DNA of 35,250 nucleotides from a bacterium (lineage in GTDB: Bacteria; Margulisbacteria; WOR-1; O2-12-FULL-45-9): positions 1-35,250 of the forward strand of contig JBDRMQ010000092.1 in NCBI GenBank assembly GCA_043811955.1, given 5' to 3'. Of the stretch, positions 3 to 26,051 are shown piece after piece. A program made the translations under genes and the position numbers. The first letter of the stretch is position 1, and each line of letters starts with the position of its first letter. The notes beneath the pieces are model-generated. The model was given only the letters and a program-made list of their open reading frames with translations, searched no databases and was not told the DNA's origin.

Positions 3-356
3 GGCCGCTTTCTAATAATAATGAACCATCCCTGCTTTCGCATCCCTCGTCAGACCGGCTGGGGAACTGACGAGCAAAGAAAATTGCAGTATCGGAGAGT
101 TGACAGTTACTTATCAGAGCTAAAGATCCCGATTAAGATGCGTCCTGGAGCAGCGCCGGACGTTCATACCTGGACTTATCACCGCCCGCTAACCCGCTAT
201 TTTACAGAACTGCATAAAAATAATTTTGCAGTGGCGCAATTAGAAGAGTGGGCCTCGCATCGCACCAGCCGGCCAGGGAAAAACAGTCGTCAGGAAAACC
301 GCGCTAGGGGCGAGATACCCATGTTTCTCGCCATGCTGGTGACTAAGCTTCCTTGA
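3..356 (+). CDS. class I SAM-dependent methyltransferase, C-terminal part (5' end lies outside the window)
   Basis: The frame is open from the window start, with no stop before the ATG at 21. The tail YHRPLTRYFTELHKNNFAVAQLEEW...GEIPMFLAM resembles the C-terminal strands of Methyltransf_11/23-type enzymes. Motif memory only. Confidence 0.5.
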   Translation, partial: GRFLIIMNHPCFRIPRQTGWGTDEQRKLQYRRVDSYLSELKIPIKMRPGAAPDVHTWTYHRPLTRYFTELHKNNFAVAQLEEWASHRTSRPGKNSRQENRARGEIPMFLAMLVTKLP

Positions 357-373
357 AAATTCGGTTTTACCGC

Positions 374-402
374 TTGATTTTTCAAGGATAATAGAGTACA
401 AT
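374..402 (+). promoter_or_regulatory. sigma70-type promoter of ATPase copy 1, leaderless-type
   Basis: TTGATT (374-379), 17 nt, TACAAT (397-402), then 6 nt (aaaaac) and ATG at 409. No Shine-Dalgarno. Confidence 0.55.
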
Positions 403-408
403 AAAAAC

Positions 409-1551
409 ATGAAAAAGGTCAAGCGGGCGCACGATCTGCGGCAAACTAAAAAGCTTCTTTCGTTATTCCCTGTAACCGCTATTCTTGGCCCCAGGCAGTG
501 CGGCAAAACAACCTTGGCCGCAGAATTTAACGCTGATTACGCCTTTGACTTGGAAAACCCCCGCGATCTGGCCAAATTTAAAAACCCGCAGTTACTGCTC
601 GAGGAAATAGAAGGGACAATTATAATTGACGAAATCCAAAGAAAGCCAGACCTGTTCCCGCTTTTAAGATATCTTGTCGACACAAACAAAAAACAAAAAT
701 ATATAATCTTAGGCAGCGCCTCTACCGACCTGGTCAAACACAGCTCTGAAAGTTTGGCAGGGAGAATCGGCTATTATGAGCTTGGCGGCTTTGGCCTGCC
801 TGATATTGGGGTAAAAAATTACAAGCAGCTATGGCTAAGGGGCGGGCTGCCCCTCGCTTATTTAAATAGCGCCCCTGAAAAAAGCCTTCTCTGGAAAGAA
901 AACTATATAACAACTTTTTTAGAAAAAGACGTGCCGCAGCTTGGAATAAATATTCCCGCTAATACTTTACGAAAGTTTTGGATGATGCTGTCCGATTACC
1001 ACGGTCAAATAATTAATTATTCGGAATTGGGCAGGGCCTTTGGCGTCTCTGATACGACAGTAAAAAAATACATTGATATTTTAAGCGGGACCTTCATGGT
1101 TAGAATACTTCAGCCCTGGCACGCCAATATCAACAAGCGTCTGGTAAAAAATCCAAAAATATATTTGCGGGACAGCGGCCTTTATCATTGCTTGCTGACA
1201 ATTAGCAGCTGGGACGAGCTCTCCGGCTCAAGTAAACTCGGCGCCTCCTGGGAAGGCTTTGCTCTGGAGCAGGCAATAAAAGTCTTGAAGAAGCAGGCGC
1301 AGGAAGCTTTCTTTTGGAAAACGCACGCTGGCGCAGAGTTAGATCTTTTCTGGCAGGATAAGGGGAAGAACTGGGGCGTTGAGTTTAAATATAGCGATGC
1401 TCCTGCCGCGACAAAATCAATGCATGTTTCTATTGCTGATTTAGGGCTTGATCATCTCTGGGTAATTTATCCAGGAAAAGAAAGCTATAAAATCACACCA
1501 AAAATTACCGCAACCCCCTTAGCTCATTTCATCAAAATGTTTGAGGGTTAA
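409..1551 (+). CDS. AAA+ ATPase (AAA_14) with DUF4143 / PD-(D/E)xK-like C-terminal domain (COG1373 family), copy 1
   Basis: Walker A GPRQCGKT, Walker B IIIDEIQ, LAGR motif, mid-protein HTH-like TVKKYIDIL. C-terminal ELDLF...GVEFK is a nuclease-like D..E.K pattern. Confidence 0.85.
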   Translation: MKKVKRAHDLRQTKKLLSLFPVTAILGPRQCGKTTLAAEFNADYAFDLENPRDLAKFKNPQLLLEEIEGTIIIDEIQRKPDLFPLLRYLVDTNKKQKYIILGSASTDLVKHSSESLAGRIGYYELGGFGLPDIGVKNYKQLWLRGGLPLAYLNSAPEKSLLWKENYITTFLEKDVPQLGINIPANTLRKFWMMLSDYHGQIINYSELGRAFGVSDTTVKKYIDILSGTFMVRILQPWHANINKRLVKNPKIYLRDSGLYHCLLTISSWDELSGSSKLGASWEGFALEQAIKVLKKQAQEAFFWKTHAGAELDLFWQDKGKNWGVEFKYSDAPAATKSMHVSIADLGLDHLWVIYPGKESYKITPKITATPLAHFIKMFEG

Positions 1552-2112: not shown

Positions 2113-2149
2113 TTATTCTATCACCTCCTTGTTTCTTTAAGATAAGCTT

Positions 2150-2181
2150 ATTCTACCCCCCCCCCCCCCATCCTTTTGCAA
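2150..2181 (-). promoter_or_regulatory. promoter of the 170-aa secreted-protein gene, with a homopolymeric G tract in the spacer
   Basis: The minus strand reads TTGCAA (2181-2176), aaggat, G14, TAGAAT (2155-2150). The spacer is 20 nt, 14 of them G. Confidence 0.55.
2156..2169. repeat. homopolymer C14 (G14 on the minus strand)
   Basis: Counted directly: C run 2156-2169. Confidence 0.9.
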
Positions 2182-2189
2182 GCGGAAAT

Positions 2190-2218
2190 TTGCGAAGTGA
2201 CAATCGCTCAGCTATAAT
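2190..2218 (+). promoter_or_regulatory. lpxB-type promoter, copy A (drives only the lpxB fragment)
   Basis: TTGCGA (2190-2195), 17 nt, TATAAT (2213-2218), 6 nt, ATG at 2225. Confidence 0.55.
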
Positions 2219-2224
2219 AACACC

Positions 2225-2347
2225 ATGAAAATCATGATCTCTGCGGGCGAAGTCTCCGGCGATGTACACGGCTCCCACTTGGTTCGCGAACTAAAAAAAC
2301 TCAATCCTAATATTTATTTCTTTGGCATGGGCTCAGAAAAACTGCTG
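2225..2347 (+). pseudogene. lpxB: lpxB 5' fragment (first 41 codons only), diverged allele
   Basis: MKIMISAGEVSGDVHGSHLVRELKKLNPNIYFFGMGSEKLL matches the lpxB N-terminus at 4672 in 37 of 41 residues. After that the ORF reads unrelated sequence to a stop at 2407. Confidence 0.8.
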
Positions 2348-2523
2348 TTATGCGGCAAACCAACCTGCCTTTTTAGCATATCACTTCTATTTTACGACGT
2401 AATATAGAAGCTGTGACGCATTATAGAAGTTGTCAAGCGCGGGATCAACAAAAAGACCGCGATTGAGATCGAGGCAGAAGACCTGATCCTGCCGGATATT
2501 CCGGAGTTAGGGATATAGCTAAT

Positions 2524-3486
2524 CTAGAAAACTGGGGGCCGACCGCCCAACTCAACAACTCGCTGCACCAGGCCTTCGGAAAACAAGTCAAAGAACTCAG
2601 CCTTAGCTTCACAAAATTCTCCCCAGCCAACTCGGGCGCCATCTAGATCAAGAAACTCACCCCGAGTCGAACCGTAGGGGGGAAGAACAACAGTTGCTTC
2701 TGCCCAATCAGTAGCACTAGTCGGAGCGTTGCCGTCTGCTGTATCTACCCTAATATAATTTTCATTAAGAAACAAGGAAAATTCAAGCAAAGTATTCCCC
2801 GCAAAATAGGGATTAATTGAAAACCCCTCTACAAAAACTGACCAAGCATTAAACTGGCCAAAGAACGCGATATTCTGCCTGCAGCGATCCATAAAGGTTC
2901 CCCCCGGGGTAGAATAAACGAACGCCTCGTCCATAAAAGCATTTCTAGGGTCAGAGACAATCCTGTCAAAAGCACTGGCAAGCAATCCGATTTTATTGCG
3001 AATGGATCGATGACAATTCCTAAGTTCAAGGAGGTTGTCTGCCGTAAAACTCGCGCCTGCAGGAACCAGCGCAGCCCTTCTGCGCACTTCCCATTCCCCA
3101 ATTGCAGCTGCCGGCAAAAGCTCATCAGAATAGTATCTATTTCTATACTTATTAGCTGTTTGATGACTTAAGACAGCTATTTCCCGTAACTCCATAACCA
3201 CCCTGGCAATATCACTATCAGTAACACCATACTTTTTACCAAGCACGTTAATATCAATTTTAACAAGCGGATAGTCTGGGAGGTCAACCTTCATGCCTAC
3301 GATTGGCTCTCTCCCTAGATCAAAGCTTTGCCTCGATGAAGCCCTTGGCACACCAAAGGCTCCTCCCGGGCTAACAACCTCTGTTCTTTTTATCGCGGCC
3401 GGAGCTGCAGCAACAAAAGACGCACCAACAAAGCCCAAACAAAAAACTATCACAATAACAACTGAAACAACCTTTACCTTAATCAT
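2524..3486 (-). CDS. secreted protein of unknown function (320 aa)
   Basis: N-terminal signal/anchor MIKVKVVSVVIVIVFCLGFVGASFVAAAPA. SD GGGGAGGAAA upstream. I recognise no domain. Confidence 0.6.
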   Translation of the reverse strand: MIKVKVVSVVIVIVFCLGFVGASFVAAAPAAIKRTEVVSPGGAFGVPRASSRQSFDLGREPIVGMKVDLPDYPLVKIDINVLGKKYGVTDSDIARVVMELREIAVLSHQTANKYRNRYYSDELLPAAAIGEWEVRRRAALVPAGASFTADNLLELRNCHRSIRNKIGLLASAFDRIVSDPRNAFMDEAFVYSTPGGTFMDRCRQNIAFFGQFNAWSVFVEGFSINPYFAGNTLLEFSLFLNENYIRVDTADGNAPTSATDWAEATVVLPPYGSTRGEFLDLDGARVGWGEFCEAKAEFFDLFSEGLVQRVVELGGRPPVF

Positions 3487-3521
3487 AATTATATTTCCTC
3501 CCCTTCACTAAGATAAGAGTA

Positions 3522-3556
3522 ATATTACCCCCCCCCCCCCCCCCATCCTTTTGCAA
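3522..3556 (-). promoter_or_regulatory. promoter of the 320-aa secreted-protein gene, with a homopolymeric G tract in the spacer
   Basis: The minus strand reads TTGCAA (3556-3551), aaggat, G17, TAATAT (3527-3522). The spacer is 23 nt. Confidence 0.55.
3528..3544. repeat. homopolymer C17 (G17 on the minus strand)
   Basis: Counted directly: C run 3528-3544. Confidence 0.9.
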
Positions 3557-3564
3557 GCGGAAAT

Positions 3565-3593
3565 TTGCGCTTCGCGAAAGTCTCGGCTATAAT
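3565..3593 (+). promoter_or_regulatory. lpxB-type promoter, copy B (drives the NTase cassette plus lpxB)
   Basis: TTGCGC (3565-3570), 17 nt, TATAAT (3588-3593), 6 nt, ATG at 3600. The 25 nt atccttttgcaagcggaaatttgcg are identical to copy A. Confidence 0.55.
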
Positions 3594-3599
3594 GTTGGC

Positions 3600-3758
3600 A
3601 TGTATTCCCAACAGAAAATCAAAAAAAGTTTGTTCCAGGTAGATATGCCAGTTGATCTCTTACTTTTCAAAGAAGCTCCTTTTAACAAAAGAAAAAATGT
3701 TTGGGGGAGCGTTCAATACAAAATCTTTCAAAATGGAAAGTTAGTTTATGAAAAATGA
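3600..3758 (+). CDS. small ORF (52 aa), possibly a remnant of a nucleotidyltransferase/antitoxin
   Basis: Hand translation: MYSQQKIKKSLFQVDMPVDLLLFKEAPFNKRKNVWGSVQYKIFQNGKLVYEK. The ATG sits exactly 6 nt after the -10 box. It is below the ORF-track length cutoff. Confidence 0.3.
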   Translation: MYSQQKIKKSLFQVDMPVDLLLFKEAPFNKRKNVWGSVQYKIFQNGKLVYEK

Positions 3759-3969
3759 AAATGAGTTAATGCGAGGGGAACGAAAAATCGCGCGAAAAAA
3801 ACCGGGCAACAAATTTATTGATGAGGAAAGAGAATGGTTAAATCTTTCGCCTAGCCAGCGTATGCTAGAAACAACAAAGCTATGGCAATTATACCTAGCA
3901 TTAGGAGGCAGCCTTGACCCAGAACCCAATCCTCAAAGTCCTTTCTACTTTCAAAAAGCACAAAGTTAA
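3748..3969 (+). CDS. small basic protein (73 aa), putative partner of the downstream nucleotidyltransferase
   Basis: The ORF overlaps the small ORF upstream by 11 nt and the downstream gene by 56 nt. Basic N-terminus. No domain recognised. Confidence 0.4.
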   Translation: MKNENELMRGERKIARKKPGNKFIDEEREWLNLSPSQRMLETTKLWQLYLALGGSLDPEPNPQSPFYFQKAQS

Positions 3970-4675
3970 AGCGCTGTTGATCGGCGGGCAGGCTTGTATT
4001 ATCTATGGCGCAGCCGAATTCAGCCGCGACTCTGACTTTGTTCTGCTGTGCGAGCAAGAAAATCTTGAGCGCCTTAATAAGGCATTGAAGGCATTAAAGG
4101 CCGAATTAATTTATGTTCCCCCGTTAGAAATAGGTTACTTGCAGAAAGGGCATGCTTGTCATTTTAGATGCAAGGCAAAGGATGTTGCAGGGCTACGCAT
4201 TGATATAATGGCCAAGATGAGGGGCTGCGATCCTTTTGAGAAGTTATGGAAACGCAGGAAAAAAGTATCGGTAGAAGGCAATGGTATTATAGATATCATT
4301 GGCCTACGAGACCTAGTTAAAAGCAAAAAGACAAAACGCGACAAGGATTGGTTAATGCTTAAAAATCTAGTTGAGAATGACATTGTGTTAAATAAAGAGC
4401 ACCCTGCTGAAGATCAGATAAAGTGGTGGTTACTGGAAAGCAGACATCCTGAATCTCTCGTTCGCTTAGCCACGGAATATTCAAAGATTAGCAATGAATG
4501 CTTAACTTATCGGCCACTTTTAGCTGCTGCTACTGAGAGAGAGAAACAAAAACTTGCTTCTTTGCTTCACGAAGAAGAATTAGCAGAGAGGAAAAGGGAC
4601 GCCGATTATTGGTCTCCTCTAATCAAAGAATTAGAAACGCTCCGCCATCTGGCAAGCAAACGGGGACAGCAATGA
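3914..4675 (+). CDS. Pol-beta superfamily minimal nucleotidyltransferase-fold protein (253 aa)
   Basis: NTase signature GG-x13-DSD (LIGGQACIIYGAAEFSRDSDFVL). The LRDLVKSKKTKRDKDW helix is typical of these NTases. AGGAGG lies 5 nt before the TTG start at 3914. The stop overlaps the lpxB start (ATGA at 4672-4675). Confidence 0.6.
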   Translation: MTQNPILKVLSTFKKHKVKALLIGGQACIIYGAAEFSRDSDFVLLCEQENLERLNKALKALKAELIYVPPLEIGYLQKGHACHFRCKAKDVAGLRIDIMAKMRGCDPFEKLWKRRKKVSVEGNGIIDIIGLRDLVKSKKTKRDKDWLMLKNLVENDIVLNKEHPAEDQIKWWLLESRHPESLVRLATEYSKISNECLTYRPLLAAATEREKQKLASLLHEEELAERKRDADYWSPLIKELETLRHLASKRGQQ

Positions 4676-5778
4676 AAATCATGCTCTCTGCCGGAGAGGT
4701 TTCCGGCGATGTCCACGGCTCTCATTTAGTCCGCGAGCTTAAAAAGCTTAAGCCAGAAGCATACTTCTTTGGTATGGGCTCAGAAAAACTTTTGGCTGAG
4801 GGCGTAGCCGTTAAAGTTGACATTACCAAGCGCGGCACAATTGGCATTTTTGAAGCCCTGCCTAATGTTCTCCCTGTTTTTCTCGCCTATAAAAAAATGG
4901 TTGGCCTGATGAAGTCAGAAAAACCAGATATGCTTATTCTCGTTGATTCCCAAGGGATTAACATGCCCCTAGCCAAAGCTGCAAAAAAGCTAGGGATTAA
5001 AACAGTCTACTACATCGCCCCGCAAGAGTGGCTTTGGGGAACACCCAAGGGCGTTAAGAAGGTTTCCGAAACAATTGATTTAATTATTTCCATTTTTGAG
5101 AAAGAACACGAAACCTACCAGCAAGCTGGAGGAAACTCAATCTATTTCGGTCATCCCCTACTAGACATTGTTAAAGGGGACAGCCAGTTTGCAAAAGGTG
5201 AAGGGCCCACGATTGCCCTGTGCCCAGGAAGCAGAACCCAGGAGATCAAAGGCTTACTCCCTATTCTTTTAAAAGCTGGGGAGTTGCTCAAAAAAGAACT
5301 TCCAAAGGCAGAGTTTATAATCCCCGCGGCGTCGACAGAAATGATCAAGAAAATTTTTAATTATATTGGCGAGGATTTTCGGCCTAAAGCTATCATTGGC
5401 CATACCTACGACATCCTGGCCAGCGCAGACCTCGCGCTTTGTGCCTCAGGCACAATTAATCTTGAAGCTTCAATTTTGGGAACACCAAATATCATGGTTT
5501 ATAAGCTCTCTCCCCTGACCTACTTTGTCGGCAAACATATTCTAAAAATTGGCGAGAAATTAAAATATTTTAGTATGCCTAATATGTTGCTTGATGAGCG
5601 GGCTATTCCAGAACTCGTTATGGAACAAGCTGAACCAAAAATAATTGCTCAAGAAGCCCTTTCTATTATTATTGATCAAGAACGACAAGCCAAGATGAAG
5701 GCCTCTTTTGAAAAACTGCGAACAAAGCTTGGCCAGCCTGGCGTGATTGAGAAAGTAGCCAGGGAGATTTTGAAATAG
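4672..5778 (+). CDS. lpxB: lipid-A-disaccharide synthase
   Basis: N-terminal MKIMLSAGEVSGDVHGSHLVRELK is the LpxB hallmark, and the length and C-terminus are GT19-like. I chose the ATG at 4672 because the lpxB fragment at 2225 starts at the same residue. Confidence 0.9.
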   Translation: MKIMLSAGEVSGDVHGSHLVRELKKLKPEAYFFGMGSEKLLAEGVAVKVDITKRGTIGIFEALPNVLPVFLAYKKMVGLMKSEKPDMLILVDSQGINMPLAKAAKKLGIKTVYYIAPQEWLWGTPKGVKKVSETIDLIISIFEKEHETYQQAGGNSIYFGHPLLDIVKGDSQFAKGEGPTIALCPGSRTQEIKGLLPILLKAGELLKKELPKAEFIIPAASTEMIKKIFNYIGEDFRPKAIIGHTYDILASADLALCASGTINLEASILGTPNIMVYKLSPLTYFVGKHILKIGEKLKYFSMPNMLLDERAIPELVMEQAEPKIIAQEALSIIIDQERQAKMKASFEKLRTKLGQPGVIEKVAREILK

Positions 5779-5799
5779 CCACAAATACCGCAAATCCTA
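5695..5799. repeat. direct repeat L: last 27 codons plus stop of lpxB, plus 21 nt
   Basis: Aligns to 10162-10266 over 105 nt with 5 substitutions. Confidence 0.9.
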
Positions 5800-5800
5800 C

Positions 5801-5828
5801 TTGACAATCCAATAATTACGCGTATAAT
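5801..5828 (+). promoter_or_regulatory. promoter of ATPase copy 2, leaderless-type
   Basis: TTGACA (5801-5806), 16 nt, TATAAT (5823-5828), 6 nt (tgaaac), ATG at 5835. Confidence 0.6.
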
Positions 5829-5834
5829 TGAAAC

Positions 5835-6977
5835 ATGATCTCAAGATTCCTGGCCTTAAGCAAGATTAAGCGCTCTCTCTTCCTGTTTGGTCCTCGGCAG
5901 GTAGGCAAAACCTACCTAATAAAGAACACCCTAGCTCCCGACATTTTCATAAACCTCCTAAAGCAAGAAGAATACTTAAGATATGCTGGAACCCCCCAGC
6001 TGCTGCGACAGGAAGTCAAGGCAAACATGCTAGTAGTTATAGACGAAATCCAGCGTTGCCCCTCCCTGCTCAACGAGGTCCAATTAATAATTGATGACAA
6101 TCCCTCTGTTCAATTTATCCTGACCGGCTCCAGCGCGCGGAAACTGCGGCGCCACGGGGTTAACTTGCTTGGTGGCAGAGCGATTGTCCTGCACCTTTTT
6201 CCGTTTACCGCTGATGAATTAGCAGATCTCTTTAACCTTGAGGAAGCATTGCTCTTTGGCGCCCTCCCCAGCATCGCGCTAGAAAAGGAAAAAGAGAGCA
6301 AGGTCCTCCTGCTGAAAAGCTATGTCGAAACCTATCTAAAAGAAGAAGTCCAACAGGAAGCCCTAACCAGGAACGTGCCGGCATTTGCCCGCTTTCTGGA
6401 ACTGGCAGCTCACGAAAACGGCAACATCCTCAATTTTCAGGCACTGTCCAGGGAAGTCGGCGTTACCTCAAAGACCATAAAAGAGTATTTTCATATCCTT
6501 GAGGATACTTTGCTTGGCTTTTTCCTTAATCCCTTCACCAAGTCCGAGCGGAAAAGAGTAGTCAGCCATCCAAGATTTTATTTTTTCGACCTAGGGGTCG
6601 TTGCTGCCTTAAGGCACGAACTATCAAGCAACTTAACGGCTGGAACACCCGCCTATGGCAGGGCCTTTGAGCACTGGGTAATTTTGGAAATAAAAAGGCT
6701 AATAGATTACAAAGGACTCGACTGGAAAATAAGCTTTTTTAGGACCAGCGACGGCGCAGAAGTTGATTTGCTTTTAGAAACAGGGAAAGAGCTCTGGGCA
6801 ATTGAAATAAAATCTTCCTCAGAGCCACGCGCGAGCGATCTCCGCGGATTAAAAAGCTTTTTGCGCGACCATCAGGTCGCTAAGTCCTTTTGCGTTTGCC
6901 AAACACCAAGGCCATACGCAACAGATGGCATTGAATTCATTCCATGGAAAGATTTTCTCAAGTTATTAAAACCTTAA
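5835..6977 (+). CDS. AAA+ ATPase (AAA_14) with DUF4143 / PD-(D/E)xK-like domain, copy 2
   Basis: GPRQVGKT, VVIDEIQ, TGSSARKLRR, LLGGR, C-terminal AEVDLLL...AIEIKSS. Confidence 0.85.
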   Translation: MISRFLALSKIKRSLFLFGPRQVGKTYLIKNTLAPDIFINLLKQEEYLRYAGTPQLLRQEVKANMLVVIDEIQRCPSLLNEVQLIIDDNPSVQFILTGSSARKLRRHGVNLLGGRAIVLHLFPFTADELADLFNLEEALLFGALPSIALEKEKESKVLLLKSYVETYLKEEVQQEALTRNVPAFARFLELAAHENGNILNFQALSREVGVTSKTIKEYFHILEDTLLGFFLNPFTKSERKRVVSHPRFYFFDLGVVAALRHELSSNLTAGTPAYGRAFEHWVILEIKRLIDYKGLDWKISFFRTSDGAEVDLLLETGKELWAIEIKSSSEPRASDLRGLKSFLRDHQVAKSFCVCQTPRPYATDGIEFIPWKDFLKLLKP

Positions 6978-7042
6978 AGTTTGCACAAGTTCTCCTCCTC
7001 TTTTTACGATAATACTTCTGTATAGATGCCCTATGGAGGTAC

Positions 7043-7603
7043 ATGGTGAGAGCACAATTAACTAAATTAACTACACATATCCCTTGGTTTTCGGCTGGGG
7101 AGCGCGTTTTCACCACCGCCAGATTTCAACTCAAAAGAAATAGCTGCGTTTGGATGGCCCTGGGATTTAAACATTCTTCTGCTTCTGTGAATGCAGCGAT
7201 TCTAAGAGGTTTAAGCGGGGATTATTATTTCGCATCTATTAGCCCTGACGAGATAAATCTTACCAAGCTAGACCAAGGGACATCAACGATTGGGCGAAAC
7301 AGAAACTGTAAAATTACAATCCCAGACACCCATCGTTTTAACCCTGTTGTTTCAAATCATCATCTGGAAGTTGATTTGTCTGCTGAAGGAATATCGATTA
7401 AAGAACCCAAAGAAACATCCTATGGAACAATGCTTTTTCCTAAGGAACCCCCTTGCGCCAAGGCTTTGTTTGAAGCCTTGGCCATTGAAACCGCCGATAC
7501 AATCGTGCAAGGAACTCCTTTTGTTTCTCCCCCACCAGAAATAGAGTACACAACCCAGTCAAAAAAAGGGGGGGCCGAGAGAGCTTACTCTAGAGGATGT
7601 TGA
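7043..7603 (+). CDS. FHA-like domain protein (186 aa)
   Basis: TIGRNRNCKITIP...VVSNHHLEVDL...ETSYGT follows the FHA pattern GR...SxxH...(N/Y)GT. It is paralogous to the N-terminus of the 8431 gene. GGAGG at 7035-7039. Confidence 0.55.
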   Translation: MVRAQLTKLTTHIPWFSAGERVFTTARFQLKRNSCVWMALGFKHSSASVNAAILRGLSGDYYFASISPDEINLTKLDQGTSTIGRNRNCKITIPDTHRFNPVVSNHHLEVDLSAEGISIKEPKETSYGTMLFPKEPPCAKALFEALAIETADTIVQGTPFVSPPPEIEYTTQSKKGGAERAYSRGC

Positions 7604-7610
7604 TACTATT

Positions 7611-22313: not shown

Positions 22314-24281
22314 TTGATGGCAAAAGAAAAAAACCAAACTTTGTACGATGCTTCTAAAATTAAAATCCTGGGCGGGATCGAGGCTGTCCGCAAACGCCCT
22401 GCCATGTATATTGGCTCAACAGGTAAATCTGGGCTTCACCACTTAATTTATGAAGTTGTTGACAATAGCATTGACGAAGCCTTGGCCGGCCATTGCTCCG
22501 CAGTAGAAGTTCTTGTTACCAAAGACAATTATGTTACGGTTATTGATGATGGCCGCGGCATCCCTTTTGATAAACACCCGCAGACAAAGCGCCCAGCCGT
22601 TGAAGTTGTTTTAACAACCCTCCATGCCGGTGGAAAATTTGGCGACTCTGTTTATAAAGTTTCCGGGGGGCTTCACGGAGTAGGCGTTTCCTGTGTTAAT
22701 GCATTATCAGAGTGGATGGAAGCTGAGATAACCAGGGAGGGGGAGACCTATACCCAACACTATGATCGTGGCGTGCCCAAAAAAGAAAAAATTGTTAAAG
22801 CTGCCAGCAAGTCCAAGACCGGGACAACGATAACCTTTAAGCCGGACCCGGAAATTTTTACTGAAACTGTTTTTGAACGCAAGGTCATCGCCCACCGTTT
22901 ACGGGAGCTGGCCTACCTTAATAAAGGGGTTAAAATTGTTTTTACTGATGAGCGGGAAAAAGATAAAGAAAAACGCACGGAAACTTTTCAGTTTGAGGGC
23001 GGGGTGGTCGAATATGTTGAGCATTTAAATGAAAAAAAGGAACGACTTTACAGGCCTCCAGTTCATTTTACCGGGGAAAAAGATAGCGTAGAGGTTGAAG
23101 TAGCGCTGCAGCATTGCATTGATTATTACGACGAGAATATTTATTCCTTTGTTAATTGTATTAAGACTAAAGAGGGCGGGACGCACGAAGTTGGTTTTAA
23201 ATCCGCGCTAACCAAATCAATTAATAACTATGCGCGCAAGAATAATATAGCTAAAGAGAACGAATCCCTCTCTGGCGATGACGTGCGCGAAGGCTTAACC
23301 GCGGTTCTTAGCATTCGTGTCCCTGATCCACAGTTTGAGGGCCAAACAAAAACCAAACTTGGCAATGGTGAGGTTAAGGGGATTGTTGATTCAATTGTTA
23401 CTGATAATATCAATGTTTACCTTGATAAAAACCCTGCGGCTGCTAAGGCGATAATTGAACGGGCTTTGATGGCTTATCGTGTGCGGGCAGCTGCCAGAAA
23501 GGCCCAAGAGCTGGAACGGAAAAAATCAGCCTTGGATACAGCACTTTTGCCAGGCAAACTTGCCGATTGTTCTGAAAGCAACGCGGAAAAGTGCGAGTTG
23601 TTCCTTGTGGAAGGGGACAGTGCCGGCGGCTCGGCAAAACAAGGTCGGGACCGACGTTTTCAGGCGATCCTGCCGCTTCGCGGTAAGATTTTAAATGTTG
23701 AGAAAGCCAGGATTGATAAAATTTTAACTTCCAACGAAATCCGTACCATGATCACCGCGATTGGCCCTGGGGTAATTTCTGGCCTGGGCGGGGAGTCTGA
23801 CAAAGAAGAAATCAGTGACGAAGAATTTTTCAAGAAGTTAAATTATTATAAAGTCGTTATTATGACTGACGCGGATGTTGACGGCGCGCACATTCGAACT
23901 TTGCTTTTAACTTTCTTTTTCCGCTATGCCAGAAAAATGATCGAAGGCGGCCATTTGTATATAGCCCAGCCGCCGCTGTATTTGGTCAAAAAAGGAAAAA
24001 CAGCTGAGTATGTCTACAGCGACAAAGAGCTAGAAAAGGTCTTGAAAAAGATTGGTCGGGACGGGGCGCATTTGCAAAGATATAAAGGTCTAGGTGAGAT
24101 GAACCCTGACCAGCTTTGGGAAACTACCATGAATCCTGAATCCCGCACTTTATTGCAAGTCACACTTGATGATGCTGAATCAGCGGATGATATTTTTAAG
24201 GTCTTGATGGGGTCTGAAGTTGAACCGCGCCGGCAGTTTATCCAAGATAATGCTAAGTATGTGAAACGGCTGGATGTTTAG
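22314..24281 (+). CDS. gyrB: DNA gyrase subunit B
   Basis: YDASKIKILGGIEAVRKRPAMYIGST, GLHH, Toprim EGDSAGG, PLRGKILNVE, DADVDGAHI. The start is either TTG 22314 or ATG 22317. Confidence 0.95.
   Translation: MMAKEKNQTLYDASKIKILGGIEAVRKRPAMYIGSTGKSGLHHLIYEVVDNSIDEALAGHCSAVEVLVTKDNYVTVIDDGRGIPFDKHPQTKRPAVEVVLTTLHAGGKFGDSVYKVSGGLHGVGVSCVNALSEWMEAEITREGETYTQHYDRGVPKKEKIVKAASKSKTGTTITFKPDPEIFTETVFERKVIAHRLRELAYLNKGVKIVFTDEREKDKEKRTETFQFEGGVVEYVEHLNEKKERLYRPPVHFTGEKDSVEVEVALQHCIDYYDENIYSFVNCIKTKEGGTHEVGFKSALTKSINNYARKNNIAKENESLSGDDVREGLTAVLSIRVPDPQFEGQTKTKLGNGEVKGIVDSIVTDNINVYLDKNPAAAKAIIERALMAYRVRAAARKAQELERKKSALDTALLPGKLADCSESNAEKCELFLVEGDSAGGSAKQGRDRRFQAILPLRGKILNVEKARIDKILTSNEIRTMITAIGPGVISGLGGESDKEEISDEEFFKKLNYYKVVIMTDADVDGAHIRTLLLTFFFRYARKMIEGGHLYIAQPPLYLVKKGKTAEYVYSDKELEKVLKKIGRDGAHLQRYKGLGEMNPDQLWETTMNPESRTLLQVTLDDAESADDIFKVLMGSEVEPRRQFIQDNAKYVKRLDV
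24231..24277. repeat. direct repeat L (gyrB 3' end), 47-nt perfect core
   Basis: Identical to 25485-25531. Imperfect similarity extends to about 24223-24281. Confidence 0.9.
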
Positions 24282-24304
24282 CCGCAAAGATATGTAAAAT
24301 GGAC

Positions 24305-24332
24305 TTGACAACTCCAAAAATCCATGTAAAAT
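24305..24332 (+). promoter_or_regulatory. promoter of ATPase copy 3, leaderless-type
   Basis: TTGACA (24305-24310), 16 nt, TAAAAT (24327-24332), 6 nt (ggaggc), ATG at 24339. Confidence 0.6.
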
Positions 24333-24338
24333 GGAGGC

Positions 24339-25478
24339 ATGTACTCCAGATTACTTAGGCCGCCGATAGACAAAAGCTTCTTTTTATTTGGCCCTCGTGG
24401 CACTGGAAAAACAACTTGGGTTAAAACAACTTTTCCAAAAGGCCTTTATTTAGACCTGCTTGAGGCCGAGCTGTTTAATGATCTTTTAGCAAACCCACAA
24501 AAGCTAGAATCTATTATCCCACAAGGCTTTAATGACTGGATAATTATTGATGAGGTGCAAAGGGTCCCAGCTTTGCTGAACGAAGTTCATAGATTAATTG
24601 AAAAGGAAAAGCATAAGTTTGTTTTGACGGGTTCGAGTGCTCGAAAACTCCGCCGGGGAGGAGAAAATTTATTGGCAGGGCGAGCCTTGACATATGCTAT
24701 GCATCCCTTAGCGGCGATAGAACTTAAAAATGATTTTGACTTAGATCATTCGCTTATGTATGGACAGCTTCCTAGCGCATACGCCGAGTCAGACCCCAAA
24801 GCGTATTTAGAAAGCTATGTTAAAACATATCTGGAAGAAGAAATTCAGCAAGAAGGCTTAACTAGAAATCTAGGGGCTTTTTCAAGGTTTTTGGAGGCGG
24901 CTAGCTTTTCTCAAGGCGCAGTTTTAAGCATTTCCTCTGTGGCTAGGGATTGCGCCGTGGAGAGAAAGGTTGTAGAGAATTATTTTAAAATTTTGGAAGA
25001 TTTATTAATTGCTTGCCGCCTACCAGCTTTTACCAAGAAAGCCAAAAGAAGAATTGTTAGTCATCCAAAATTTTATTTTTTTGATGTTGGAGTTTTTCGA
25101 ACTATCCGGCCATTGGGACCACTTGATAATCCAGAGGCGGTTGCAGGGCAGGCCTTTGAAAGCTTGGTTTTGCAGGAATTGCAAGCGATCAATGATATTT
25201 ATAAATTAGGCTATGAAATTTATTATTGGCGGACAGCAAACAACGCGGAAGTTGATTTTATCCTTTATGGGGAAAAAGGGCTCTTGGCGATTGAGGTAAA
25301 GCGCTCGGCGAAAGTATCTGGCTCAATGCTAAGCGGCTTGAAAGCTTTTAAGCGAGACTATCCTATGGCGCGATCAGTTCTGGTCTATGGAGGGAAACGA
25401 GAATTGCAAGAAGGGGACATTCGTGTTATCCCTGCCGAGAAATTTTTTCAAGAGTTGCCGTCAATCCTTTCTAAATAA
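24339..25478 (+). CDS. AAA+ ATPase (AAA_14) with DUF4143 / PD-(D/E)xK-like domain, copy 3
   Basis: GPRGTGKT, IIIDEVQ, TGSSARKLRR, LLAGR, C-terminal AEVDFIL...AIEVKRS. Confidence 0.85.
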   Translation: MYSRLLRPPIDKSFFLFGPRGTGKTTWVKTTFPKGLYLDLLEAELFNDLLANPQKLESIIPQGFNDWIIIDEVQRVPALLNEVHRLIEKEKHKFVLTGSSARKLRRGGENLLAGRALTYAMHPLAAIELKNDFDLDHSLMYGQLPSAYAESDPKAYLESYVKTYLEEEIQQEGLTRNLGAFSRFLEAASFSQGAVLSISSVARDCAVERKVVENYFKILEDLLIACRLPAFTKKAKRRIVSHPKFYFFDVGVFRTIRPLGPLDNPEAVAGQAFESLVLQELQAINDIYKLGYEIYYWRTANNAEVDFILYGEKGLLAIEVKRSAKVSGSMLSGLKAFKRDYPMARSVLVYGGKRELQEGDIRVIPAEKFFQELPSILSK

Positions 25479-25484
25479 CCACGT

Positions 25485-25531
25485 CGGCAGTTTATCCAAG
25501 ATAATGCTAAGTATGTGAAACGGCTGGATGT
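25485..25531. repeat. direct repeat R: orphan copy of the gyrB 3' end
   Basis: 25479-25535 reads cca cgt cgg cag ... gat gtg tga, which encodes PRRQFIQDNAKYVKRLDV-stop. This matches the real gyrB tail, with synonymous differences only. Confidence 0.9.
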
Positions 25532-25539
25532 GTGACCAA

Positions 25540-25962
25540 TTAGTTTAATTTTTTCCCGGCGAAAGCCAGGCAGTCGTCTTGATTAGGGAAGGTGAGGATG
25601 TCTATTATTTGTGCTTCAAACGGGAGCACCTTAAAGAGCCTTCCTGCCTCGTCCATAATATTTAATGGGATTTCCAGATCAAGCGTGTCAGGACCGTTTT
25701 TTGGTATTTTAAAAGTAAAGTAGCCAGGGAGCCCTCCCGCCAGCCCCTGTTTATTAACAATTGATAAGTTAATAATTACTAAGCCATGTCCCCCAAAAGC
25801 CGGAATTCCAGAAGCAGTATAAAGAATTGTAATTTTTGAGAATGAGCTGTTTACTGTTATCTCCGGGGGCCTAAGTTGAGAGACATAGGCTGGCTTACGC
25901 CCTCCCCTCCTGGGCCTAGGGATAATAATTGATCCTACCGGCAATCTATTAAATGATATCAT
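25540..25962 (-). CDS. hypothetical protein (140 aa)
   Basis: Only an ORF of reasonable length in an otherwise empty gyrB-gyrA spacer. No motif recognised and the SD is weak. Confidence 0.4.
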   Translation of the reverse strand: MISFNRLPVGSIIIPRPRRGGRKPAYVSQLRPPEITVNSSFSKITILYTASGIPAFGGHGLVIINLSIVNKQGLAGGLPGYFTFKIPKNGPDTLDLEIPLNIMDEAGRLFKVLPFEAQIIDILTFPNQDDCLAFAGKKLN

Positions 25963-26051
25963 TTCCTATTTGTCCGTGTTTTTGGCGGGAAATTTCACTA
26001 TTTTTGACCTGTTGCCGAGAGGCCTAGATAGTTGTATAATTAATAAGAATC

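What the first reader, a model, noticed from the sequence alone, without database searches (positions are those of the whole stretch)
374..1551. Three diverged DUF4143 AAA+ ATPase paralogues in 25 kb, all with the same self-contained promoter-6nt-ATG architecture
The copies at 409-1551, 5835-6977 and 24339-25478 share Walker A/B, LAGR and C-terminal (E/D)(V/L)D...E(I/V/F)K motifs, but they are clearly not recent duplicates (copy 1 is the most divergent). Each sits immediately after the 3' end of another gene. Each has its own -35/-10 pair and exactly 6 nt between the -10 and the ATG (397-402/409, 5823-5828/5835, 24327-24332/24339). Two of the three have duplicated host-gene tails. This density and uniform packaging around the origin suggest independently acquired selfish or defence cassettes rather than housekeeping paralogues.
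Basis: partly seen in the sequence, partly recalled or inferred. Interest (0 to 1): 0.6.

Follow-up and report, generated by a model that had tools for sequence, protein, structure and literature searches.

The report
Three independently acquired ATPase-nuclease gene cassettes
Three unrelated copies of a very common but untested candidate anti-phage gene (an ATPase fused to a nuclease) were each inserted, with their own tiny promoter, just behind a resident gene of an uncultivated Saganbacteria genome, and the duplicated gene ends beside them show that such genes can spread without any transposase or integrase.

Summary
ORFs 409-1551, 5835-6977 and 24339-25478 are all AAA_14 + DUF4143 proteins: an ORC/Cdc6-like ATPase, a winged helix and a PD-(D/E)xK nuclease. 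They match PADLOC's unvalidated defence candidate PDC-S01. Each starts 52-57 nt after a host stop codon (a methyltransferase, lpxB, gyrB), with a -35, a -10, exactly 6 nt and then ATG, which predicts a leaderless mRNA.

They are not lineage-specific paralogues. In a tree they fall in three separate clades, each with 64-93% identical relatives from other genera or phyla. Copy 3 splits gyrB-gyrA, which are adjacent in 27 of 29 relatives, and sits between two copies of gyrB's last 18 codons. Copy 2 heads a 4.35-kb island between two lpxB tails. Copy 1 is shared only with one sister genus, which still has the duplicated methyltransferase tail.

In copy 3's subfamily the ~45-nt promoter/operator is conserved across more than 15 phyla, better than third codon positions. 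The repeat arms differ mostly by synonymous changes, so they are two functional alleles, not a decaying target duplication.

Best reading: one-gene, probably self-repressed defence or selfish cassettes that spread by "insertion with long target duplication", probably through host homologous recombination. The protein's function and the founding insertion step are unproven.

The parts
3..356 (+). 3' end of a class I SAM methyltransferase-like host gene. Its last codons and its stop codon (TGA 354-356) lie inside the left inverted-repeat arm of cassette 1.
   Evidence: Full-length orthologue in L088, 2190-2948. Relatives end '...LAVK*' or '...AIKL*'.
351..408 (+). Promoter/operator of cassette 1. 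Inverted repeat CCTTGAAAA (351-359) and TTTTCAAGG (379-387); -35 TTGATT 374-379; -10 TACAAT 397-402; 6 nt before the ATG.
   Evidence: Sequence read. The same inverted repeat lies upstream of homologues in Saganbacteria, Spirochaetia and an unclassified bacterium.
409..1551 (+). DUF4143 copy 1 (380 aa): AAA_14 ATPase, winged helix, PD-(D/E)xK nuclease.
   Evidence: Pfam. PADLOC PDC-S01, E 5e-77. 93% identical orthologue in sister genus G010/L088.
5686..5799 (+). Left arm of the lpxB long target duplication: the last 31 codons of lpxB, its stop codon and 21 nt of the lpxB-degT spacer.
5800..5834 (+). Promoter of cassette 2 (-35 5801-5806, -10 5823-5828, then 6 nt). The inserted DNA starts at the base before the -35.
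   Evidence: Family consensus CCGTAAATATTGG-TTGACA-TTCCAATATTTACGG-cTATAAT.
5835..6977 (+). DUF4143 copy 2 (380 aa), the first gene of a 4.35-kb island (5800-10152).
6978..10152 (+). Rest of the island: ORFs 7043-7603, 7611-8420 and 8431-10119, with no Pfam or PADLOC match.
   Evidence: In six relatives degT follows lpxB directly.
10153..10266 (+). Right (relic) arm of the lpxB tail duplication, directly before degT (10269).
   Evidence: Over the 93 coding nt there are 8 differences: 4 synonymous and 3 non-synonymous codons.
24223..24281 (+). Functional gyrB tail (left arm), ending ...RRQFIQDNAKYVKRLDV*.
24282..24338 (+). Promoter/operator of cassette 3. Direct repeat ATGTAAAATGGA (24292-24303 and 24324-24335); near-palindrome GGACTTGACAACTCC (24301-24315) over the -35; -10 at 24327-24332; 6 nt before the ATG.
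   Evidence: The same ~45 nt is conserved across 66 loci from more than 15 phyla.
24339..25478 (+). DUF4143 copy 3 (379 aa). Its stop codon overlaps the first bases of the relic gyrB tail.
   Evidence: AF2 model with pLDDT 89.8.
25477..25535 (+). Relic gyrB tail (right arm). It encodes the same 18 residues and a stop, and its 4 differing codons are all synonymous.
25540..25962 (-). Extra 140-aa ORF of unknown function between the relic tail and gyrA. It is absent from the 0-70-nt gyrB-gyrA spacer of relatives.

Best explanation
Each of the three genes is a separately acquired one-gene cassette of about 1.2 kb. A cassette consists of a 35-60-nt subfamily-specific promoter plus the ORF, and it ends at or within about 10 nt of the stop codon. 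The promoter has a -35, a -10 and exactly 6 nt before the ATG, so the mRNA is probably leaderless. It carries inverted or direct repeats over the -35 and the start site that most likely bind the protein's own winged helix for autorepression.

The protein is an ORC/Cdc6-like AAA+ ATPase fused to a winged helix and a PD-(D/E)xK nuclease. All catalytic residues are intact. It belongs to the PADLOC candidate defence family PDC-S01. It most likely acts as an ATP-dependent nuclease against foreign DNA, or as a selfish nuclease. That function is inferred, not shown.

The cassettes carry no recombinase. They were inserted at the 3' ends of resident genes by 'insertion with long target duplication', the footprint described for restriction-modification genes. 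The two repeat arms are two functional alleles of the host gene's end. The most likely route is therefore that the cassette arrives together with a piece of the neighbouring gene from a related donor and is integrated by the host's homologous recombination. This could be a single crossover of a circular form, or a double crossover that uses the relic tail as the short arm. The result keeps the host gene whole and leaves the other allele as a relic.

Shown here: the domain content, the separate origins, the empty sites in relatives, the repeat footprint, the allelic nature of the arms, and the conservation of the promoter.

Inferred: leaderless transcription, autorepression, the recombination route, and the defence function.
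For: Identity of the family:
- Pfam AAA_14 + DUF4143.
- PDC-S01, E 1e-60 to 5e-77.
- Invariant GPRxxGKT, DExQ, GR, E274, ExD306 and ExK321 across 43 sequences that include all three copies.
- AF2 model with pLDDT 89.8. Its best fold matches are ORC/Cdc6, RuvB and clamp-loader ATPases, plus Cdn1/Can2 nucleases.

Separate origins:
- Tree.
- Copy 3's relatives are 56-74% identical in Omnitrophota, Elusimicrobiota, Actinomycetota, Patescibacteria, Planctomycetota, Chlamydiota, Pseudomonadota and others.

Empty sites:
- gyrB-gyrA adjacent in 27 of 29 relatives.
- lpxB followed directly by degT in six relatives.
- fabD followed directly by fabG in many relatives, whereas this genome's contig C104 has a DUF4143 gene between them.

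Footprint:
- Flanking host-gene-end repeats around copy 3 (55 nt).
- Around the copy 2 island (114-133 nt).
- Around the C59 copy (127 nt, 88%) and the C104 copy (39 nt).
- Around copy 1's orthologue in G010 (about 45 nt).
- In loci L013, L028, L056, L059, L062 and L096.
- Tight geometry (right arm starting at most 15 nt after the stop) in 6 of 93 DUF4143 genes against 3 of 322 control ORFs, Fisher P = 0.005. The three control hits were a second DUF4143-like ATPase, a Fic protein and a HipA kinase.

Allelic arms:
- 36 synonymous against 13 non-synonymous differing codons in eight arm pairs. The neutral expectation is 19% synonymous (P < 2e-4). Against the 40% expected if one arm drifted freely, P = 2e-6.
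- The lpxB tail adds 4 synonymous and 3 non-synonymous.
- The relic fabD tail (VEVKSF) fits the family consensus better than the functional one.

Promoter:
- A 6-nt gap in 58 of 76 loci of copy 3's subfamily.
- Majority-base frequency of 0.75-0.78 at -40 to -1, against 0.49 at third codon positions and 0.33 beyond -56.
- Different palindromes in the other two subfamilies.

No recombinase: no integrase or transposase domain in the ORFs of the window that were scanned.

Known precedent: Furuta et al. 2010, PMC2853133.
Against: - No experiment shows anti-phage activity for PDC-S01 (PMC12988326).
- The recombination route does not explain the founding insertion at a new gene. It also does not explain why the right end of the cassette lies so consistently within 0-11 nt of the stop codon at unrelated targets.
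- Allelic arms could also arise if a true target duplication was followed by later allelic replacement of the functional gene end.
- Only 6-7% of sampled relatives keep a tight repeat, so most insertions carry no readable footprint.
- No other sampled member of copy 3's or copy 2's subfamily lies next to gyrB, so the donor that the route requires at that site was not seen.
- Copy 2 is bracketed only as part of a four-gene island.
Confidence: 0.7

Rival explanations
1. Self-mobilising one-gene element. The ATPase-nuclease itself makes staggered cuts 20-130 nt apart at gene ends and inserts its own promoter-plus-gene unit. Fill-in synthesis creates the long target duplication.
For: - The cassette carries a single gene, whose product has an intact nuclease and an intact ATPase.
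- Both ends are defined. The left end lies at about -45 to -56. The right end lies 0-11 nt after the stop at seven unrelated targets.
- typA was hit twice, in opposite orientations.
- Spread across phyla.
Against: - The arms differ mostly synonymously, which a fresh duplication followed by decay does not predict.
- There are no near-identical copies within the genome; the closest pair among the window copies is 43% identical.
- A non-DUF4143 insert in the same window has the same footprint: 2344-3503, between two alleles of the lpxB 5' end, with 17 synonymous and 4 non-synonymous differing codons.
- There are no terminal inverted repeats at the two ends.
Confidence: 0.15
2. Remnants of larger integrase-borne islands or of integrase-less att-flanked elements. 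The repeats would be attL and attR of a site-specific recombinase acting in trans.
For: - Integrative elements typically carry a copy of the 3' end of their target gene.
- Copy 2 lies in a multi-gene island between repeats.
Against: - No integrase in the window's scanned ORFs.
- Each site has a different repeat with no shared core: gyrB, lpxB, fabD, an HD-domain gene, typA, sucD.
- Repeat lengths range from 17 to 133 nt.
- Copy 3's unit holds only the one gene, between arms that abut the promoter and the stop codon.
Confidence: 0.07
3. Ordinary lineage-specific paralogues, for example regulatory or replication-related ORC-like ATPases kept near the origin.
For: - Three of the seven copies lie within 25 kb of dnaA.
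- The best fold match is ORC/Cdc6.
Against: - The copies fall in separate cross-phylum clades.
- Nearly all relatives lack them at these sites.
- The sister genus has a different subfamily behind lpxB, and an AbiE pair instead of copy 3 between gyrB and gyrA.
Confidence: 0.03

Closest known systems
PADLOC phage-defence candidate PDC-S01 (AAA_14 + DUF4143, COG1373)
   Same: All three proteins match its models strongly and have the ATPase plus PD-(D/E)xK architecture. The family is reported as the fourth most common candidate defence system, with repeated transfers between bacteria and archaea (PMC12988326). DUF4143 is classed as a PD-(D/E)xK nuclease (PMC3424549).
   Different: In the papers I could search, the family is defined only by 'guilt by embedding', with no tested activity. 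I found no description of its cassette anatomy, its conserved leaderless promoter/operator or its insertion footprint. Four papers mention DUF4143 and seven mention PDC-S01.
Insertion with long target duplication of restriction-modification gene complexes (Nobusato et al. 2000, as cited in Furuta, Abe and Kobayashi 2010, PMC2853133)
   Same: Nuclease-encoding defence-type genes with no mobility gene, flanked by direct repeats longer than 30 bp and of variable length. The repeat occurs once in insert-free relatives and often overlaps the 3' end of a gene.
   Different: The cargo here is a single ATPase-nuclease gene, not a restriction-modification pair. The arms here are clearly two alleles, with mostly synonymous differences. 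The cassette also brings a conserved promoter/operator. The mechanism is unresolved in both cases.
Free-standing homing endonuclease genes
   Same: A single nuclease gene that sits between or at the ends of conserved genes and spreads horizontally.
   Different: No known homing family has an AAA+ ATPase. The targets here are many different genes. Homing by double-strand-break repair does not leave duplicated target ends.
Integrative elements that restore the 3' end of their target gene (tRNA, tmRNA or protein-gene att sites), and their integrase-less derivatives
   Same: The host gene end is duplicated, the host gene stays intact, and a relic lies on the far side of the insert.
   Different: There is no integrase, no common att core and only one gene.

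Membership tests
PDC-S01 / AAA_14-DUF4143 ATPase-nuclease | AAA_14 and DUF4143 domains above Pfam's gathering scores | tested here: met
   AAA_14 at 78-84 bits (cut-off 27) and DUF4143 at 113-146 bits (cut-off 28.1), for all three copies.
PDC-S01 / AAA_14-DUF4143 ATPase-nuclease | Match to the PADLOC PDC-S01 models | tested here: met
   E 5e-77, 1.2e-65 and 1e-59.
PDC-S01 / AAA_14-DUF4143 ATPase-nuclease | Intact Walker A and B motifs and intact PD-(D/E)xK catalytic residues | tested here: met
   G18, R20, G23, K24, D71, E72, Q74, E274, E304, D306, E319 and K321 are invariant in 43 sequences that include the three copies.
PDC-S01 / AAA_14-DUF4143 ATPase-nuclease | Protection against phage | not testable with these tools
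   The literature says validation is pending (PMC12988326).
Insertion with long target duplication | Direct repeat longer than 30 bp on both sides of the insert | tested here: met
   gyrB: 55 nt. lpxB: 114-133 nt. Copy 1: none in the window, about 45 nt in G010.
Insertion with long target duplication | The repeated sequence occurs once, and the flanks are adjacent, in related genomes without the insert | tested here: met
   gyrB-gyrA adjacent in 27 of 29 relatives. lpxB-degT adjacent in six relatives.
Insertion with long target duplication | No transposase or integrase in the insert | tested here: met
   Copy 3's insert holds only the DUF4143 gene. The other three ORFs of the lpxB island have no Pfam or PADLOC match, so for that island the point is weaker.
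Insertion with long target duplication | The cargo is a restriction-modification system | tested here: not met
   The cargo is a lone ATPase-nuclease with no methyltransferase partner.
Classical IS or transposon | A transposase, terminal inverted repeats, a short fixed target duplication and near-identical copies | tested here: not met
   No transposase domain. No conservation 3' of the stop codon. Repeats of 17-133 nt. Copies at most 46% identical.
Integrase-mediated island or integrase-less att-flanked element | A recombinase gene or a shared att core | tested here: not met
   No integrase. The repeats are a different host gene end at each site.
Leaderless mRNA | The transcription start coincides with the A of the start codon | not testable with these tools
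   The sequence predicts it: the -10 ends 6 nt before the ATG and there is no usable Shine-Dalgarno spacing.

The most novel reading that the evidence does not exclude
AAA_14-DUF4143 (PDC-S01) genes would be not only defence cargo but a new class of minimal, autonomous one-gene mobile element. The ATPase-nuclease would recognise the repeats in its own promoter and cut at the ends of conserved genes. This would stimulate its own capture there, in a homing-like process that duplicates the target end. That would explain both the defined cassette ends and why the family is among the most abundant 'defence candidates' in prokaryotes.
Probability: 0.15. Interest if true: 0.85.

Novelty: new variant of a known kind. 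Interest (0 to 1): 0.6.

Why it matters
PDC-S01 is counted as one of the most common defence candidates in bacteria and archaea, with about 39,000 detected instances in one survey (PMC12988326). Neither its function nor its way of spreading is known.

This window gives three independent instances with empty-site controls. It defines a cassette: promoter/operator plus ORF, probably leaderless. A leaderless design would suit a gene that has to be expressed in many phyla (my inference from general knowledge that leaderless mRNAs are broadly translatable).

The window also gives evidence that the duplicated gene ends are two alleles. That points to recombination with imported DNA rather than to a transposase. 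It extends an old, unexplained mobility mode of restriction-modification genes to a second kind of nuclease gene.

It also makes the mode testable. One can ask whether the nuclease or RecA is needed for integration, and whether the protein binds its own promoter.

There is a practical point as well. Insertions of this kind break up conserved operons: gyrBA, fabD-fabG and lpxB-degT in this genome.

Tried and rejected
- Sensitive BLAST for a tail duplicate next to copy 1, and tight around copy 2, found none. My first repeat scan was limited to 3 kb and so missed the lpxB tail copy at 10153.
- NCBIfam gave no match. A sequence search of the PDB gave nothing significant.
- I asked whether gyrB is a recurrent target of copy 3's or copy 2's subfamily. 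None of 105 loci has gyrB or gyrA nearby.
- I asked whether the AbiE pair that occupies the gyrB-gyrA spacer in the sister genome G010 also has a duplicated gyrB tail. It does not. It has a 46-nt repeat of its own sequence instead.
- I tried to decide which arm of the HD-gene repeat is native by comparing both with relatives. The result was not decisive.
- A pure target-site-duplication model, and a model of 'decay of one arm', were rejected on the excess of synonymous differences.
- Public reads for empty sites, circular junctions or transcription starts could not be searched.
- A neighbour-gene tally was only crude and is not used as evidence. In it, 42 of 93 cassettes had an upstream co-directional ORF end within 260 nt, and 47 of 91 had a convergent downstream ORF end within 200 nt.
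Full report
**What is there**

The window is the origin region of a small genome: 1.45 Mb in 206 contigs, 43% G+C. The gene order is rnpA-yidC-jag-mnmE-folD on the minus strand, then dnaA, dnaN, dciA, gyrB and gyrA. The closest public relative of several stretches is labelled Candidatus Saganbacteria.

Each has an AAA_14 domain and a DUF4143 domain well above Pfam's cut-offs. Each matches PADLOC's candidate defence family PDC-S01 at E 1e-60 to 5e-77.

In an alignment of 43 family members that includes all three copies, these motifs are invariant:
- the Walker A motif (GPRxxGKT);
- the Walker B motif (DExQ);
- a GR pair;
- the nuclease residues E274, E304xD306 and E319xK321.

Both activities are therefore probably intact. 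An AlphaFold model of copy 3 is confident (pLDDT 89.8). Its N-terminal half resembles ORC/Cdc6, RuvB and clamp-loader ATPases. Its C-terminal part resembles PD-(D/E)xK nucleases such as Cdn1 and Can2. No solved structure matches the whole protein.

The literature I could search classes DUF4143 as a PD-(D/E)xK nuclease of unknown function (PMC3424549). It describes PDC-S01 as the fourth most common defence candidate of prokaryotes, still without experimental validation (PMC12988326).

**The promoter claim**

The -35 and -10 hexamers and the exact 6-nt gap to the ATG are at the stated coordinates. With 6 nt between the -10 and the ATG, the expected transcription start is the A of the start codon, which gives a leaderless mRNA. 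This rests on established promoter geometry and was not measured.

The design is not private to these genes. In this genome a TAnnnT box ends exactly 6 nt before the start of 71 crude gene calls, against about 30 at neighbouring distances. About 40 of 1112 genes have a full -35, -10 and 5-8-nt layout. It is strongly enriched among the DUF4143 genes, at 5 of 7.

More telling is what the relatives show. In copy 3's subfamily, 58 of 76 loci from more than 15 phyla have the same 6-nt gap. The roughly 45 nt before the ATG is conserved at a majority-base frequency of 0.75-0.78. That compares with 0.49 for third codon positions of the gene itself and 0.33 beyond -56. The consensus is aTGGAGTTGACAACTCCAAAnATatATGTAAAATGGAgTT-ATG. 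It contains:
- a palindrome (GGAGTT/AACTCC) across the -35;
- a third GGAGTT just before the ATG;
- in many loci, including the window, a direct repeat of ATGTAAAATGGA (24292-24303 and 24324-24335).

The other two subfamilies have different palindromes in the same place. Copy 1 has CCTTGAAA...TTTCAAGG (351-359 and 379-387 in the window). Copy 2's relatives have CCGTAAATATTGG-TTGACA-TTCCAATATTTACGG.

Subfamily-specific palindromes over the promoter of a protein that carries a winged helix make autorepression the likeliest reading. This is inferred. Nothing is conserved 3' of the stop codon. The unit is therefore promoter/operator plus ORF.

**Separate origins**

The genome holds seven DUF4143 genes. 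In a maximum-likelihood tree with fetched homologues they need six label changes, no more clustered than shuffled labels. The three window copies sit in three well-supported clades:
- Copy 1 groups with Saganbacteria, Elusimicrobia and Spirochaetia proteins at 62-93% identity.
- Copy 2 groups with Omnitrophota and WOR-1 proteins at 64-67%.
- Copy 3 lies in a clade spread over Omnitrophota, Elusimicrobiota, Actinomycetota, Patescibacteria, Planctomycetota, Chlamydiota, Pseudomonadota and others, at 56-74%.

The copies are only 25-43% identical to each other.

**Empty sites**

*Copy 3.* In 27 of 29 relatives of the same family and order with usable sequence, gyrA starts within about 0-70 nt of gyrB's stop codon. 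In the window, 1.77 kb separates them. One further relative's contig ends inside gyrB. The remaining relative is the sister genus G010, which has an AbiEi/AbiEii pair in that spacer instead. The spacer is therefore a hotspot.

*Copy 1.* The orthologue (93% identical) is present only in G010. The 15 other relatives that have the methyltransferase have no DUF4143 gene after it.

*Copy 2.* Only this genome and G010 have a DUF4143 gene behind lpxB. The two genes belong to different subfamilies (below 30% identity). Both are followed within 5 nt of the stop by the same 60-nt host-side segment. In six relatives degT follows lpxB directly.

*A further case elsewhere in the genome.* Another copy sits between fabD and fabG, which abut in many relatives.

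**The footprint**

*Copy 3.* It lies between two copies of gyrB's last 18 codons (24223-24277 and 25477-25531, 53 of 55 nt). The left arm ends gyrB, about 10 nt before the conserved promoter. The right arm begins inside the cassette's own stop codon.

*Copy 2.* It is the first gene of a 4.35-kb block (5800-10152). The block is bracketed by two copies of the lpxB tail plus 21 nt of the lpxB-degT spacer (5686-5799 and 10153-10266).

*Copy 1.* It has no repeat in the window. In G010 the orthologue is followed, 2 nt after its stop, by a ~45-nt copy of the methyltransferase end. The host gene now terminates at a TGA inside the cassette's left palindrome arm.

The same geometry appears around:
- the C59 copy, with 127 nt at 88% of a convergent HD-domain gene's end;
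- the C104 copy, with the fabD tail;
- loci from other phyla: typA twice in opposite orientations, sucD, an M16 peptidase and others.

A repeat whose right arm starts within 15 nt of the stop occurs in 6 of 93 fetched DUF4143 genes, against 3 of 322 other ORFs in the same loci (P = 0.005). The three 'controls' were another DUF4143-like ATPase, a Fic protein and a HipA kinase.

None of the window ORFs that I scanned against Pfam has an integrase or transposase domain. About ten of them have no Pfam match at all, so they cannot be excluded this way.

**What the arms say about mechanism**

If the repeats were target duplications made at insertion, the relic arm should decay neutrally. It does not.

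| Arm pair | Synonymous differing codons | Non-synonymous differing codons |
|---|---|---|
| gyrB (window) | 4 | 0 |
| Eight DUF4143 arm pairs pooled | 36 | 13 |
| lpxB tail | 4 | 3 |

For the pooled set, the neutral expectation is 19% synonymous, and the highest value in 5000 simulations was 39%. Against the 40% expected if only one arm were constrained, P = 2e-6.

The relic fabD tail (VEVKSF) fits the family consensus better than the functional one. The arms are therefore two functional alleles of the host gene end.

The simplest reading is that the cassette travels together with a piece of the neighbouring gene from a related donor and is integrated by homologous recombination. This could be a Campbell-type single crossover of a circle, or a double crossover that uses the relic as the short arm. 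The host gene is kept whole and the other allele is left as a relic. Later allelic replacement of the functional end would give the same pattern and cannot be excluded.

One observation suggests that the cassette's own protein is not required. A non-DUF4143 insert in this window (2344-3503) lies between two alleles of the lpxB promoter and first 40 codons, with 17 synonymous and 4 non-synonymous differing codons.

Two things remain unexplained by recombination alone:
- how a cassette first lands at a new gene;
- why its right end lies 0-11 nt after the stop at unrelated targets.

That keeps a self-mobilising reading alive at perhaps 15%.

**Comparison with what is known**

The footprint matches 'insertion with long target duplication', described for restriction-modification genes. 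That footprint has repeats longer than 30 bp and of variable length. It has no mobility gene and often overlaps a gene's 3' end. Most cases are in naturally competent species, and the mechanism is unknown (PMC2853133).

The cargo here is a different nuclease gene family. In the searchable literature I found no description of this mobility or of the promoter/operator for DUF4143/PDC-S01.

Earlier notes of this scan report the same footprint around this family in many other genomes. I treat them as leads.

**Verdict**

The genes are independently acquired, self-promoted one-gene cassettes of an untested defence-candidate family, and a recombinase-free insertion footprint survives at two of the three window sites and at the third in the sister genome. 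I rate the finding as a new variant of a known kind.

Noticed in passing
window 2133-2343, compared with 3504-3593 and 4672-4790: The divergent promoter region and the first 40 codons of lpxB are duplicated around a 1.16-kb insert (2344-3503) that carries ORF 2524-3486 on the minus strand (320 aa, with no Pfam or PADLOC match). The relic lpxB 5' end differs from the real one at 24 of 120 nt but at only 4 residues (17 synonymous codons). It is slightly closer to the sister genome's lpxB. This is the same two-allele footprint at a 5' end, with no DUF4143 gene.
   Followed up: partly
window 3594-4671: A block of small ORFs and a 253-aa ORF (3914-4675) is wedged between the lpxB promoter (TATAAT at 3586-3591, then 6 nt, then ATG) and the real lpxB start at 4672. 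The sister genome has a related nucleotidyltransferase-like block there. The 253-aa ORF has no Pfam or PADLOC match.
   Followed up: partly
window 2156-2169 and 3527-3543: Homopolymer runs of 14 and 17 C on the + strand lie in the two copies of the divergent promoter region, in front of the minus-strand genes 1600-2112 and 2524-3486. They may be slippage-prone. Earlier notes of this scan read them as phase-variable promoters.
   Followed up: no
window 25540-26051: A 140-aa ORF of unknown function on the minus strand, plus about 90 nt with a TATAAT box (26035-26040, 11 nt before gyrA's ATG), lie between the relic gyrB tail and gyrA. In relatives, gyrA follows gyrB within 0-70 nt. gyrA has therefore been uncoupled from gyrB here and probably runs from a new promoter.
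   Followed up: partly
L123 and L150 (G010, gyrB-gyrA spacer): The sister genus has an AbiEi/AbiEii-like pair on the minus strand in the same gyrB-gyrA spacer. It carries a 46-nt direct repeat (89%) of its own sequence at both ends and no gyrB tail duplicate.
   Followed up: partly
genome contig C104 11165-12343, and contig C59 (minus strand): Two further DUF4143 genes of this genome carry the footprint. One lies between fabD and fabG, with a diverged copy of the fabD tail (DRAVEIKSYLDI* and DHAVEVKSFSNI*). The other lies in the end of a convergent HD-domain gene, with a 127-nt repeat at 88%.
   Followed up: yes
L023 486-1626, L022 2550-3612, L029 (minus strand): In loci fetched for copy 3's relatives, three other genes are also flanked by tight direct repeats of 25-61 nt: a second DUF4143-like ATPase lying in tandem with the first, a Fic-domain protein and a HipA-like kinase.
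   Followed up: partly
window 13480-14345: Two small overlapping ORFs between the M50 protease gene and folD. The first matches PADLOC candidate PDC-M05A weakly (E 8e-9), so this may be another small defence or toxin-antitoxin pair.
   Followed up: no
L259 (G010) 4518-8418, compared with window 5800-10152: Both genomes have an island between lpxB and degT that begins with a DUF4143 gene. The two DUF4143 genes belong to different subfamilies. Only a 60-nt segment after them is shared at the DNA level, which suggests cassette replacement in place.
   Followed up: partly
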